Source: Eledone cirrhosa (lineage: Eukaryota). Taken from it: a stretch of DNA of 64,000 nt. The stretch lies in the NCBI GenBank assembly GCA_964016885.1, contig OZ024749.1:44516001-44580000 (forward strand), given 5' to 3'. The notes beneath the pieces were generated by a model, which did no database searches, was not told the DNA's origin, and saw only the letters and a list, made by a program, of their open reading frames with translations. This document shows positions 17,966 to 63,240 of the stretch, in pieces. The number at the start of each line of letters is the position of its first letter. The stretch's first letter is position 1. Position numbers and translations under genes: made by a program.

Positions 17966-18241
17966 TTTCAGAAGATCCCGTTAAGGGTGAAAGCACCGAT
18001 TCTTTGCTTAAACTTCAATCTGCCATTTTAATATATATATATATATTTATTAAAATAACAGATTAAAGTTTAAGCAAATTTAAGAGTTTCAGAAGATCCC
18101 GTTAAGGGTGAAAGCAGCAATTCTTTGTTTAACTTTAATCTGTTATTTTCATAAATATTTCCTCTACGGTTTTTATATATTTGATATATATTTATCCTTA
18201 TCGAGCCCTCTTTGGATTTTAGTCTTCAAATTTATTATTAT

Positions 18242-27597: not shown

Positions 27598-27850
27598 CAT
27601 ACCGTATATATATAGTAATAATAATAAATAGGTGTTTGTCCGTGTGTGAGTAAGTGTATCCTTGTATCCTTATGTGTGTGTATGAATCCATAAGCGCATA
27701 TGAGTATATATATATATATATATATATAAATATATATATATATAAATATATATATATAAATATATATATATATAAATATATTATGAAGAGAGAAGAAACA
27801 TTTAGATATAATTAGTAATAAAATGTATCATACCCAAACTGTTCCTAAAT

Positions 27851-27938
27851 TCCTCGACTACGTAGTTTCGTGGCATAAACAAAAACAATATATCAAAGAT
27901 ATAGAGTCCTTGCGAGGTCTGCCAACTTATCAAGAGGA
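27851..27938 (-). ncRNA. Type I hammerhead ribozyme motif (U3-A8 variant), family A
   Basis: Reverse complement of 28098-28185. Confidence 0.75.
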
Positions 27939-28097
27939 TACCTCATTTTACTAGTCTCAAGAACGCGTCTACACGACGTGAGAAAGAATCCCAAAAGGCG
28001 GAGGGGGAGATAGTCACGCGATATATCTCCCCCTCCGCCTTTTGGGATTCTTTCTCACGTCGTGTAGACGCGTTCTTGAGACTAGTAAAATGAGGTA

Positions 28098-28185
28098 TCC
28101 TCTTGATAAGTTGGCAGACCTCGCAAGGACTCTATATCTTTGATATATTGTTTTTGTTTATGCCACGAAACTACGTAGTCGAGGA
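28098..28185 (+). ncRNA. Type I hammerhead ribozyme motif (U3-A8 variant), family A
   Basis: tcctc TTGATAA gttggca[...]tgccac GAAA ctacgtag TC gagga: 5-bp stem I, stem II, palindromic stem III. Predicted GUC cleavage after 28180. Confidence 0.78.
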
Positions 28186-28688
28186 ATTTAGGAACAGTTT
28201 GGGTATGATACATTTTATTACTAATTATATCTAAATGTTTCTTCTCTCTTCATAATGTATTTTTAACTCTGATACTGGTTCAGTCTGGTTCAAACTGAAT
28301 TGGTCTGTCCCAGTCATTCGTTGAGCAACATCGGTGAAGTTGGCGCCCTTAACTCACAGTTGGGTGCGGGTGCATTCATGTATATATGTGTGTCCCCGCA
28401 TGTATCTGTGTGTTTCTAAATGTATTAATAACTCCCTCTGGTCGAGCAATCTTTGAGGTGTGGGGACAACTGGAAAGCTTCCATTACTCATGCTTCTCGC
28501 CTTCTTCACTACCTCTTCTGCGGCCTCGATATGAATACCCCCTCCGCCTCCGTGGTATTTTCTTCGTGGTTATAAGAGGCTTAGCTCTGTTTCTCGACCG
28601 TTATATCGCGTGACTATCTCCCCCTCCGCCTTTTGGGATTCTTTCTCACGTCGTGTAGACGCGTTCTTGAGACTAGTAAAATGAGGTA

Positions 28689-28776
28689 TCCTCTTGATAA
28701 GTTGGCAGACCTCGCAAGGACTCTATATCTTTGATATATTGTTTTTGTTTATGCCACGAAACTACGTAGTCGAGGA
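28689..28776 (+). ncRNA. Type I hammerhead ribozyme motif (U3-A8 variant), family A
   Basis: Identical to 28098-28185; predicted cleavage after 28771. Confidence 0.78.
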
Positions 28777-29013
28777 ATTTAGGAACAGTTTGGGTATGAT
28801 ACATTTTATTACTAATTATATCTAAATGTTTCTTCTCTCTTCATAATGTATTTTTAACTCTGATACTGGTTCAGTCTGGTTCAAACTGAATTGGTCTGTC
28901 CCAGTCATTCGTTGAGCAACATCGGTGAAGTTGGCGCCCTTAACTCACAGTTGGGTGCGGGTGCATTCATGTATATATGTGTGTCCCCGCATGTATCTGT
29001 GTGTTTCTAAATG

Positions 29014-29055: not shown

Positions 29056-29278
29056 GTGAAGGCGTGTGGTTGAGTGGTTAGAGAATTAGATTCGCAATCG
29101 TGAGGTTGTGAGTTCAATTCCTGGACCGTGCGATGCGATATGTCCTTGAGCAAGACACTTTATTTCACGTTGCTCCTTCTACCTGGAGTTGCGACCGATA
29201 GATAGTATTAGCAATTGGAAAGACCAACGGAAACATTGTTTCCTCGGTCCGATTTGACGAAAGTCGATCGTTCCTAAG
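29056..29278 (+). mobile_element. tRNA-derived SINE group 1a
   Basis: Near-identical to 17620-17840. Confidence 0.93.
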
Positions 29279-53412: not shown

Positions 53413-53632
53413 GTGAAGGCGTGTGGCTGAGTGGTTAGAGAACTGGATTCGCAATCGTGAGGTTGTGAGTTCGATTCCTGGACCGGGCGATGCGTTATGT
53501 CCTTGAGCAAGACACTTTATTTCACGTTGCTCCTTCTACCTGGAGTTGCGACCGATAGATAGTATTAGCAATTGGAAAGACCAATGGAAACATTGTTTCC
53601 TCGGTCCGATTTGAAGAAAGTCGATCGTTAGG
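53413..53632 (+). mobile_element. tRNA-derived SINE group 1a
   Basis: Near-identical to 17620-17840. Confidence 0.93.
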
Positions 53633-53944: not shown

Positions 53945-54157
53945 AGTGTAATAATAATACATTTGAAGACTAAAATCCAAAGAGGGCTCGATAAGGATAA
54001 AAATATATCAAATATATGAGAACGATAGAGCAAATATTTATTAAAATAACAGATTAAAGTTTAAGCAAAGATTCGGTGCTTTCAGACTTAACGGGATCTT
54101 CTGAAGATCCCGTTACATGTGAAAGCAACGATTATTTGCTTAAACTTTAATCTGTTA

Positions 54158-54163
<6 letters not shown>
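53945..54163 (-). mobile_element. Family C element, asymmetric palindrome centred at 54102
   Basis: Centre taacgggatcttc t gaagatcccgtta; long end at left, short end at right. Confidence 0.85.
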
Positions 54164-54217
<54 letters not shown>

Positions 54218-54893: not shown

Positions 54894-54898
<5 letters not shown>

Positions 54899-56367
54899 AA
54901 CCAGTAAGACCCCGACAGCTGAGCTCAAGCCGTTTCGACGGCTAATTCTGGACTAAATGAACATTTATCCTGGTATTTAAATAGCCGATCTTCTCAAGGG
55001 GTAATTCCATATATGGTCAAAGTTATTGTCAAAAATCAGTAGTAATTCTGTGGTTGCAAATTAGTAGGGGAGATGGTGGCTAAACCTGCCAGTAGGAGAA
55101 AGAGGGGAGGGGGTGGAGTAGACCCAATCAAGCGTTGGTAGTGCCAGCTACAGCTGGGCATGAGGTCAAAGAAGATACAGGGGAGGGGGAGGGGGAGGAA
55201 GTCGGAACGGTAGGTAGAACAATGGGGGGTAAAAATAGGAAAGAAAAAATACTGAGAGTGAAGAAAAGCAAAAAAGTGTAAAGAAAAAATTAAATTCTAC
55301 GACCTAGGTGTCAGGCTATTGTTAGGCGAGAATAAAATAAAGAAAGAAAGAAAGAAGTAAATAAATAAATAAATAAATAAATAAGGAAATAAGTAAAAGA
55401 ACTAGGTGGGACGAATTAAGCAAGGACCCTTTTAAGAGGTATAAGTACGTAAATGATACGGTGACTGGTCAACAAAAGGGGCCAAAATACTAAAGAGACT
55501 ACCACGAAATAAACAATAAAGGTTTCCATCCCGGGCCAGCAACGACCCAGTGCAGCAAAGTGAACTTGTACGACATAATAATTCTGAGTCCCGGGAAAAA
55601 TATATACTAATGCTAACTCTAAAAGATCTAAAACAAGCTACATGAAAGTTCGTACGAAATAAAGGTAGAATACGGAGAAATAAGTTCAGAATCCACCCCG
55701 CCCAGAAGAAAAGCGAAGCAAGAAATACTGAAACGAAAAAATAAGGCATAAGTGCCACTAAGAAATAAAGAGGGCACAGAGAATAGTGGGAGCGGTCGGA
55801 AAAGGGGGGCAAGTATCCGGGGTCTAAGCCAACTGCTATAAAGGGCGGAGTCCGCCAAATCTATCAAAGACTAGGGGAGGGGGGAGTGGGGGTACTTTTT
55901 TCTTTACACTTTTTTGCTTTTCTTCACTCTCAGTATTTTTTCTTTCCTATTTTTACCCCCCATTGTTCTACCTACCGTTCCGACTTCCTCCCCCTCCCCC
56001 TCCCCTGTATCTTCTTTGACCTCATGCCCAGCTGTAGCTGGCACTACCAACGCTTGATTGGGTCTACTCCACCCCCTCCCCTCTTTCTCCTACTGGCAGG
56101 TTTAGCCACCATCTCCCCTACTAACTTGCAACCACAGAATTACTACTGATTTTTGACAATAACTTTGACCATATATGGAATTACCCCTTGAGAAGATCGG
56201 CTATTTAAATACCAGGATAAATGTTCATTTAGTCCAGAATTAGCCGTCGAAACGGCTTGAGCTCAGCTGTCGGGGTCTTACTGGTTCCTATTACCCACTC
56301 TACTACCTCAAGTATTGAGTACTTTGGTGCGTTATGGTCCACCTGGTTCCTTACCACATTTCCTTCG

Positions 56368-56370
<3 letters not shown>
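54894..56370. mobile_element. Family B longest copy: 396-bp inverted repeats, 606-bp spacer, ~80-bp extension
   Basis: 54894-55289 is the reverse complement of 55896-56291 (one mismatch seen); flanked by (TA)n. Confidence 0.9.
56183..56276 (+). ncRNA. Type I hammerhead ribozyme motif (U3-A8 variant), family B (mirror copy 54909-55002, minus)
   Basis: acccc TTGAGAA gatcggcta[...]tagccgtc GAAA cggcttgagctcagctg TC ggggt; predicted GUC cleavage after 56271. Confidence 0.8.
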
Positions 56371-56422
<52 letters not shown>

Positions 56423-57414: not shown

Positions 57415-57564
57415 GGAACAAGTAGGTCCAGAATTAGCCGTCGAAATGGCTTGAGCTCAGCCGTCGTGGTCCTACTTGTTCCTATTACCCACTCTACTAC
57501 CCTAAGTATTGAGTACTTTGGTGCGTTAAGGTCCATCTGTTTCCTTACCACATTTACTTCGTTA
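57415..57564 (+). mobile_element. Family B truncated copy
   Basis: Inverted short end ggaacaagtagg followed by a homologue of 56232-56370. Confidence 0.88.
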
Positions 57565-58081
57565 TATATATATATATATATATATACTTAAATGTATATA
57601 TTTATATATATATATACATATATATATTTATATATACATACATATACATACAAACTTTTTCAGTTTGTATGGCGTTTTAACATATTGTTTAGCTCCAGTT
57701 TTCTTAACTATTGAGCACTTGCCAGCATTTCTACGATTTTGAGTTTCGTTTCGCTTTTTCTACCAGTCGAAATACGATTCTCGCTGAATTATATTTATAT
57801 ATATAAATATATATATATATTGAATTAGAAACACTGTCGTAACTTTTAATTCCTTCATATGAACATACATAGGGTTTTCCGTCTCCATTGTATATGCTTG
57901 TACAATTATTAAGCAATAATAGGGAAGCAAGATAATGAAAACCTTAAGAAAACTTACGTGGATTAAATTCTGAATGAGTATTCAAAATAAAGCAAAAATA
58001 AAAGCATTACAGAATGGAATATGTGATTCTGTCGCCTTCGTTTCTATGGCATATATTCATCCCCTCATATATATATCTATA

Positions 58082-58204: not shown

Positions 58205-58295
58205 GCATATATATACACATGCACATATATATGCATGTGTATATACATGCATGTATATCTACCTATATATACATATATAAATATATATATATATA

Positions 58296-58483
58296 TAACG
58301 AAGGAAATGTGGTCAGGGACTAGATAGACCATAACGCACCAAAGTACTCAATACTTAGGGTAGTAGAGTGGGTAATAGGAACAAGTATGACCCCGACGGC
58401 AGAGCTCAAGCCGTTTCGACGGCTAATTCTGGACTCAATTCGTCGAAACGGCTTGAGCTCTGCCGTCGAGATTCATACTTGTT

Positions 58484-59773: not shown

Positions 59774-59804
<31 letters not shown>

Positions 59805-59807
<3 letters not shown>

Positions 59808-59895
59808 CGAAGGAAATGTGGTAAGGAACCAGATGGAGTCCAGAATTAGCCGTCGAAACGGCTTGAGCTCAGCCGTCGAGGTCCTACTCGTTCCT
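59805..59895. mobile_element. Family B minimal copy
   Basis: Long end (minus, ~30 bp) joined to the plus-strand HHR 3' half and short end. Confidence 0.85.
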
Positions 59896-60032
59896 ATATA
59901 TATATATTTATTTATTTATTAAAATAAAAGATTAATAAATATTTAATAAATATTTGCTGTACGGTTATTATATATATTTATATATATATATATATTATCC
60001 TAATCGAACCCTCTTCGGATTTATTATTCTTA

Positions 60033-63023: not shown

Positions 63024-63099
63024 ATTGTTTATATATATATATGTAAATATGAATGTTTATCTATATACGTATATGTGCGTATATATATATATATATATA

Positions 63100-63240
63100 T
63101 AACGAAGGAAATGTGGTAAGGAACCAGGTGGACCATAACGCACCAAAGTACTCAATACTTGAGGTAGTAGAGTGGGTAATAGGAACCAGTAAGACCCCGA
63201 CAGCTGAGCTCAAGCCGTTTCGACGGCTAATTCTGGACTC
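63100..63240 (-). mobile_element. Family B truncated copy (long end only)
   Basis: Reverse complement of 56231-56370. Confidence 0.9.

What the first reader, a model, noticed from the sequence alone, without database searches (positions are those of the whole stretch)
56183..56276. Two unrelated families use a non-canonical UUGANAA hammerhead core (U3-A8 covariation)
Seen: family B has TTGAGAA and family A (28103-28109) has TTGATAA exactly where CUGANGA belongs. Both lie between well-formed stems I and II, with GAAA, a GUC triplet, a bulged U near the base of stem II and a large stem II insert. Known: C3 and G8 form a tertiary Watson-Crick pair, so U3-A8 preserves it. Inference: the double change suggests selection for activity, and descriptor searches with the canonical core would miss these motifs.
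Basis: partly seen in the sequence, partly recalled or inferred. Interest (0 to 1): 0.85.

Follow-up and report, generated by a model that had tools for sequence, protein, structure and literature searches.

The report
Penelope hammerheads with known U3-A8 core
Two jumping-gene families in this animal genome carry a hammerhead RNA motif that likely cuts itself, with a swapped core base pair that is already in print; the new point is that family B's lineage likely spread to over a thousand copies while that pair was mismatched, before it was restored.

Summary
Observation confirmed: five type I hammerheads, all UUGANAA, lie in the window (shuffle mean 0.38). Family B sits in the terminal repeat of a young, intact Hydra-clade Penelope-like element (3,531-bp unit, 716-aa RT/GIY-YIG). 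Family A sits in a 591-bp non-coding tandem unit (retrozyme-like). The U3-A8 core is not new: Perreault 2011 and Cervera and de la Pena 2014 (about 1,300 in Schistosoma Penelope elements) report it, and this scan met it in other genomes. Genome-wide, short-stem motifs covary strongly: 7,356 U3-A8 and 3,798 C3-G8 against 125 C3-A8 and 84 U3-G8. Against a simple 'double change proves selection': 1,364 of 6,335 clan-B motifs have an unpaired C3-A8 core. On a tree built from the ORF alone, they form a ladder of once-active subfamilies from which the window's U3-A8 subfamily descends by one C-to-U change. So pairing is favoured over the long run but was dispensable for a time, which fits published in vitro data that Penelope insertion does not need cleavage. 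Cleavage is untested; no RNA run was listed. Verdict: new member of a known kind, with one useful evolutionary twist.

The parts
56183..56276 (+). Family B type I hammerhead: core UUGAGAA 56188-56194, GAAA 56249-56252, predicted cut after C56271
54909..55002 (-). Second family B hammerhead, in the inverted arm (core starts 54997)
55893..56374 (+). Sense arm of the family B insertion: 482 bp of pLTR plus tail, ending in (TA)n, 99% identical to full-length units
54894..55896 (-). Inverted, 5'-truncated arm of the family B insertion (1,003 bp, 3' UTR and pLTR), ending in (TA)n
28098..28185 (+). Family A type I hammerhead: core UUGAUAA 28103-28109, palindromic stem III, predicted cut after C28180
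28689..28776 (+). Second family A hammerhead, one 591-bp unit downstream; likely dimer partner
27851..27938 (-). Third family A hammerhead, in the inverted arm (core starts 27933)
28024..29013 (+). Family A sense arm: about 1.7 tandem units of 591 bp, longest open frame in the unit 86 codons, ends in (TA)n
27771..28025 (-). Family A inverted arm, ending in (TA)n

Best explanation
These are type I hammerhead ribozyme motifs with a U3-A8 core in the terminal repeats of two mobile families, B an intact Hydra-clade Penelope-like retrotransposon and A a 591-bp non-coding tandem repeat likely derived from such an element, and they likely cut their own RNA, probably slowly, after the GUC at 56271 and 28180. 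Shown: anatomy, element context, copy numbers, covariation across families. Inferred: the U3-A8 pair stands in for the tertiary C3-G8 pair. B can fold as a monomer, while A would need its neighbour unit, through the palindromic stem III, to form a dimer. Cleavage would trim multi-unit transcripts to unit length, with possible circularisation. Cleavage is favoured but likely not required for copying: insertions end 20 or 103 bases downstream of the cut site and so read through an uncut or rejoined motif, and clan B stayed active through a phase with an unpaired C3-A8 core before C3-to-U restored pairing.
For: Context. Family B recurs at a 3,531-bp period with a 716-aa open ORF and 62 listed near-identical full-length ORFs (a floor). 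It has the Hydra marks RWR, DKT, CxCX5C, CxxC/CxH and (TA)n targets. Family A recurs at a 591-bp period. Covariation. Short-stem patterns give U3-A8 7,356, C3-G8 3,798, C3-A8 125, U3-G8 84 (controls 53, 9, 22, 34). In 400 kb of evenly spaced genome stretches: 15 C3-G8, 2 U3-A8, 0 mismatched. In 78 metagenome relatives: 30 C3-G8, 2 G3-C8, 0 mismatched. Conservation. In 30 clan-B copies picked without constraining the core, N7 takes all four letters while U4, A6 and A9 are 30 of 30 and G5 and A8 29 of 30. Columns with a second letter or gap in 3 or more rows: 13 of 37 in loop II, 0 of 6 in GAAA plus UC, 2 of 17 in stem III. Family A relatives (about 78% and 70% identical) change stem I compensatorily and swap one palindromic stem III for another. 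Literature. U3-A8 is natural and was active in vitro (Perreault 2011). A Penelope hammerhead loses cleavage with single 3 or 8 mutants and is partly rescued by the G3-C8 double mutant (Frangieh 2024).
Against: No cleavage data exist for these motifs. 1,364 of 6,335 clan-B motifs are C3-A8, and sister family K has an A4 core in most copies seen, so core lesions are tolerated in this genome. In a pairwise mutant scan of one type III hammerhead, only the G3-C8 swap rescued activity in this region, so U3-A8 was low there (Roberts 2023). Metazoan Penelope hammerheads cleave weakly in vitro, and no RNA reads ended at the cut site in Anolis. None of 52 BLAST hits to the B 3' region starts in the 10-base bin holding the cut site. 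Folding stability is not above shuffles. Genome counts are copies, not independent events.
Confidence: 0.72

Rival explanations
1. The motifs are catalytically silent or nearly so. They are kept as a folded RNA landmark, for example for protein binding or for placing the two reverse-transcription start sites, and 3-8 pairing is kept for folding rather than cutting.
For: The C3-A8 grade was active: shared ORF differences from young family B are 27 synonymous to 8 non-synonymous, with 1,364 motifs. Family K carries A4. Hammerhead mutants did not affect Penelope insertion in vitro. U3-A8 was low in one mutant scan.
Against: Every other catalytic position stays fixed between clan-B subfamilies while N7 and loop II drift. 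Across families only Watson-Crick 3-8 combinations dominate. Pairing was regained in the youngest clade.
Confidence: 0.2
2. The C3-A8 subfamilies are not really unpaired. C3 pairs with G7 in a slipped register (CUGA-GA plus an extra A before stem II), or forms a protonated C-A wobble, so the pair was never lost and selection for activity was continuous. This is my speculation.
For: 98 of the 100 listed C3-A8 motifs have G7, whereas U3-A8 copies use A, C, G and T at position 7. An extra base after A9 is a recurrent feature of Penelope hammerheads.
Against: The C3-A8 phase spans only about 0.05 substitutions per site of ORF backbone (summed), so an unchanged N7 is expected by chance. I found no data that a core lacking N7 is active.
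Confidence: 0.07
3. Chance resemblance to a hammerhead.
For: Rfam gives no hammerhead hit; folding z-scores are weak.
Against: 5 observed against a shuffle mean of 0.38. Thousands of genomic matches against tens in controls. The position in the pLTR is as published for this clade.
Confidence: 0.01

Closest known systems
Hammerheads of metazoan Penelope-like elements, U3-A8 variant of Schistosoma Cercyon (Cervera and de la Pena 2014, PMC4209133)
   Same: Type I motif in the pLTR, U3-A8 core, long stem II with an unpaired base at its 5' end, short stem I (5 bp), G10.1-C11.1, palindromic stem III, copies in tandem or inverted pairs.
   Different: B has a full stem III able to close as a monomer, and both families carry a roughly 40-nt structured stem II insert. 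An amplified C3-A8 intermediate is not described in the parts I read.
Natural U3-A8 core covariation (Perreault et al. 2011, PMC3088659)
   Same: The same compensatory change at the same tertiary pair.
   Different: There 'several examples'; here at least 7,356 short-stem motifs plus most of clan B's 6,335, and more numerous than C3-G8 under the same patterns.
Hydra clade of C-terminal EN+ Penelope-like elements (Craig et al. 2021, PMC8557442)
   Same: RWK-like motif, DKT, CxCX5C linker, CxxC and CxH in the endonuclease, (TA)n targets, hammerhead near the 3' end, inverted 5'-truncated copies.
   Different: All 26 Hydra rows of their File S2 have CUGANGA cores and short stem II loops (found with a canonical descriptor). 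The unit here is 3.5 kb against their 'generally <3 kb'.
Non-LTR retrozymes of animals (Li, Clavereau and Pollet 2026, bioRxiv 10.64898/2026.07.22.740005)
   Same: Family A is a non-coding tandem repeat with one type I hammerhead per unit; such repeats are argued to derive from Penelope pLTRs.
   Different: U3-A8 core and long stem II. The parent element was not identified and circular RNA was not tested.
Anolis Poseidon element PAc (Frangieh et al. 2024, PMC11167929; author name recalled)
   Same: Two 3' termini downstream of the hammerhead (here 56291 and 56374), matching the two internal reverse-transcription starts that define the 'tail'.
   Different: Different clade, C3-G8 core; the tail here is 83 nt against 30-40.

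Membership tests
Type I hammerhead ribozyme | Three stems around a junction, stem I open | tested here: met
   for A, stem III forms only as a duplex (self-duplex -12.9 kcal/mol, hairpin 0)
Type I hammerhead ribozyme | Core U4 G5 A6 N7 A9, G12 A13 A14, A15.1-U16.1, H17 | tested here: met
Type I hammerhead ribozyme | Watson-Crick pair between positions 3 and 8 | tested here: met
   U3-A8 in all 5 window copies; not met in 1,364 of 6,335 clan-B relatives
Type I hammerhead ribozyme | Match to an Rfam hammerhead model | tested here: not met
   likely because of the insert and core change, so this reflects the model's reach
Type I hammerhead ribozyme | Site-specific self-cleavage | not testable with these tools
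   needs a cleavage assay
Hydra-clade Penelope-like element (family B) | Single ORF, RT followed by C-terminal GIY-YIG endonuclease | tested here: met
   716-aa ORF with YRDDG and a VIY..AYIG motif, read by eye; Pfam scan gave 0 families; 2,205 homologues
Hydra-clade Penelope-like element (family B) | RWK motif, DKT, CxCX5C linker, CxxC and CxH | tested here: met
   RWR, DKT, CNCPDRSIC, CNLC, CKH in P0001 against the definition; RWK is RWR here
Hydra-clade Penelope-like element (family B) | (TA)n insertion, partial tandems and inverted truncated copies | tested here: met
Hydra-clade Penelope-like element (family B) | Phylogenetic placement with named Hydra elements | not tested
Non-LTR retrozyme (family A) | Non-coding tandem repeat with a type I hammerhead in each unit | tested here: met
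Non-LTR retrozyme (family A) | Transcription, self-cleavage and circular RNA | not testable with these tools
   no RNA holder listed for family B; family A was not searched
Non-LTR retrozyme (family A) | Derivation from a Penelope pLTR | tested here: inconclusive
   inverted-arm structure, two 3' ends and (TA)n targets fit; no linked ORF in 31 A loci or 3 relatives

The most novel reading that the evidence does not exclude
Clan B preserves a fossil record of a ribozyme's tertiary core pair changing by way of a mismatch. An autonomous retrotransposon lineage carried C3-A8 through several successive subfamilies, made more than 1,300 genomic motifs, then regained pairing as U3-A8. With 3-8 changes recurring between families in the same genome and an A4-core sister family, this is a natural allelic series showing that hammerhead cleavage tunes, but is not required for, Penelope transposition in vivo.
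Probability: 0.6. Interest if true: 0.55.

Novelty: new member of a known kind. Interest (0 to 1): 0.36.

Why it matters
The core variant is already in print, so the finding as written is ordinary. What Penelope hammerheads do in vivo is still open. This genome holds young intact elements with U3-A8, older autonomous subfamilies with C3-A8, and families with C3-G8 or an A4 core. These natural alleles in one scaffold let cleavage rate be compared with copy success, and they show a compensatory change in a catalytic RNA passing through a long-lived intermediate. In practice, under my patterns U3-A8 motifs outnumber C3-G8 about two to one, so canonical descriptors undercount hammerheads here.

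Tried and rejected
Rfam on the whole window was swamped by microsatellite hits to microRNA models (150 of 675 rows shown); local scans gave no hammerhead. Pfam gave nothing for the ORF. Covariation among top BLAST copies was uninformative: 38 of 38 B motifs were identical, and 106 A motifs differed only outside the core (overlapping loci recount copies). The parent of family A was not found. No ORF homology was seen in the A loci, and the ORF fragments beside relative L229 are separate nested insertions. The long-stem U3-A8 pattern (5,786 matches, control 209) misses family A because of its last base, so I have no genome-wide count for A beyond 1,095 first-look candidates. Sequencing runs: no RNA holder listed, so no reads were laid. 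Przybilski and Hammann 2007 (PMC1986816) is not held. The family-level cluster table includes several AT-rich false positives and misses family E, so I use it only qualitatively. I first read the hammerhead-like text near window 54100 as a CUGA core, then rejected it as an inversion-junction artefact of family K. I considered C3-A8 being a register or deletion artefact and rejected it: it is a plain substitution. The root of clan B is unresolved, so I cannot say whether C3-A8 came straight from C3-G8 or from an older U3-A8.

Full report
Observation. A descriptor that leaves positions 3 and 8 free finds five type I hammerheads in the window, with cores at 56188 (+), 54997 (-), 28103 (+), 28694 (+) and 27933 (-). 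All are U3-A8, and none has the canonical core. Sixty shuffles give a mean of 0.38. The five belong to two insertions, so they are not five independent events. Rfam misses both sites. Family B folds into the three-way junction as its minimum-energy monomer, though no more stably than shuffles. Family A's stem III is a perfect 10-base palindrome that forms only as a duplex, the signature of dimeric hammerheads.

What the families are. The window is G000:C9:44516001-44580000 of a 3.0-Gb, microsatellite-rich genome; I did not determine the host. Family B recurs at a 3,531-bp period, and each unit has an open 716-aa frame starting about 280 bases downstream of the hammerhead core. Sixty-two near-identical full-length frames were listed, a floor. 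The protein has the marks by which Craig et al. 2021 define the Hydra clade of Penelope-like elements; I did not place it on a tree with named members. The window copy is a typical truncated insertion: a 1,003-bp inverted arm and a 482-bp sense arm between (TA)n runs. Family A is a 591-bp tandem unit without a long frame and with the same inverted-arm, (TA)n anatomy. It fits the non-LTR retrozymes argued to derive from Penelope repeats. Its parent was not found. A and B share no significant DNA similarity.

Is 3-8 covariation real? Yes, across families. One pattern with short stem II gave whole-genome counts of 7,356 U3-A8, 3,798 C3-G8, 125 C3-A8 and 84 U3-G8, against reversed-pattern controls of 53, 9, 22 and 34. 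The listed mismatched rows are mostly scattered single copies of the same families, or junk. In 40 evenly spaced 10-kb stretches the free descriptor found 15 C3-G8, 2 U3-A8 and no mismatch; in 78 metagenome loci encoding relatives of the B protein it found 30 C3-G8, 2 G3-C8 and no U3-A8. On an RT tree of 31 rows, the U3-A8 carriers clan B and family E are not one clade (p-AU 0.0002), so the pair changed at least twice, by two gains, a gain and a loss, or exchange of repeats. The endonuclease tree is weaker: starred branches force only one change, p-AU 0.007. In 30 clan-B copies chosen without constraining the core, N7 takes all four letters and the other core positions, apart from position 3, hold in 29 or 30 of 30. 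Loop II and the flanks drift (stem II and part of stem I were fixed by the pattern and carry no weight). Family A's relatives change stem I compensatorily and replace one palindrome by another.

The result against the simple reading. The core-free pattern counts 6,335 clan-B motifs (control 0). Of the first 100 listed, 19 have C3, 1 has U3-G8 and none has C3-G8. A dedicated pattern counts 1,364 C3-A8 motifs, 21.5%, and the change is a plain substitution. With positions 3 and 8 masked, 11 of 12 C3-A8 rows formed a supported group (100/94; 29 rows). A wider set of 33 rows placed C3-A8 rows between old and young U3-A8 groups. A tree from the 3' part of the ORF alone (19 arms that retained it, of 48 examined, plus two family K outgroups) shows a ladder. 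At the base is an unresolved mix of old U3-A8 and C3-A8 rows; above it come six C3-A8 rows branching in succession; at the top is a U3-A8 clade (100/99) that holds the window's subfamily. Monophyly is rejected for both states. Codon differences shared by the C3-A8 copies against young family B are 27 synonymous to 8 non-synonymous, whereas private ones are 23 to 38, so the lineage was likely under protein selection through this phase. The window's U3-A8 thus likely arose by one C-to-U change from a mismatched, active ancestor. Caveats: few rows, a distant outgroup with different base composition, and possible recombination between ORF and repeat. The sister family K has C3-G8 but A4 in place of U4 in most copies seen.

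How it likely works. Shown: anatomy, context, counts. From established hammerhead chemistry (recalled): the 3-8 pair positions nucleotide 8 for catalysis and G12 acts as base. Inferred: transcripts of tandem units cut after GUC, B possibly alone and A with its neighbour, giving unit-length RNA. Copies of B end at two sites, about 56291 (18 of 52 hits) and 56374 (26 of 52), both downstream of the cut site, and none starts in the cut-site bin. Templates were therefore uncut or rejoined at that motif. This matches the Anolis element, where single 3 or 8 mutants abolished cleavage, the G3-C8 double mutant partly restored it, cleavage needed the protein, and insertion in vitro was unaffected. Activity of U3-A8 cannot be assumed. 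It was active in earlier work cited by Perreault but low in one complete pairwise scan, and metazoan Penelope hammerheads cleave weakly.

Comparison with what is known. Perreault et al. 2011 report natural U3-A8 covariation. Cervera and de la Pena 2014 report about 1,300 U3-A8 motifs in Schistosoma Penelope elements using a dedicated descriptor, along with the long stem II, the unpaired base and the palindromic stem III. All 26 Hydra rows in Craig's File S2 are CUGANGA, so U3-A8 in this clade may be unreported. Paper searches for an amplified natural C3-A8 form found nothing. The library lacks most subscription journals, including the 2007 paper on 3-8 exchanges; a 2017 paper on dimeric Penelope hammerheads is recalled, not seen. 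What I saw of each paper. PMC4209133: parts 1-2 of 4, supplements not seen, and they may list further core variants. PMC3088659: passages and section 8. PMC8557442: passages, section 11 and part 2 of 59 of the supplement. PMC11167929, PMC9901934, PMC3884650 and PMC7151607: passages. bioRxiv 2026.07.22.740005: part 1 of 5. Earlier notes of this scan describe U3-A8 Penelope hammerheads in other genomes, and none exists for this genome.

Verdict. A real feature, correctly spotted, of a kind already published: a new member of a known kind. Interest 0.36.

Noticed in passing
window 17966-18038, 18085-18165, 38149-38292, 54027-54170; L068 8150-8230, L079: Family K, the sister group of clan B (54% protein identity), has a hammerhead-like motif with core CAGAAGA (U4 replaced by A) in most copies seen, a U-U pair at the base of stem II and C3-G8 intact.
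   Followed up: partly
window 63096-63239 (-), 58292-58439 (-), 57426-57568 (+), 15207-15337 (+), 59801-59897: Abundant 140-bp clan-B stubs hold only the 3' half of the hammerhead; 32 of 52 hits start within window-equivalent 56220-56249, inside the stem II insert and about 40 nt upstream of the cut site, suggesting a reverse-transcription stop.
   Followed up: partly
L105 2765 and 5268 (-), metagenome contig WLWI01015891.1: Two tandem type I hammerheads with a natural G3-C8 core, about 2.5 kb apart.
   Followed up: no
L185-L190 (G000:C1:6519939-6521558): Another U3-A8 tandem repeat with a 316-bp period and no long ORF; several further U3-A8 families exist in the genome.
   Followed up: partly
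L238, L239 against L192, L197: Closely similar short hammerheads occur in both C3-G8 and U3-A8 form (one cluster), a candidate second recent switch.
   Followed up: no
L213, L214, L216, L217: Two more intact Hydra-type families (719 and 714 aa, about 42% identical to family B) with C3-G8 cores.
   Followed up: partly
window 53415-53530 and 29060-29160: A recurring interspersed repeat that looks like a tRNA-derived SINE (by eye, not tested).
   Followed up: no
window 6987-7262: Six exact copies of a 46-bp unit.
   Followed up: no
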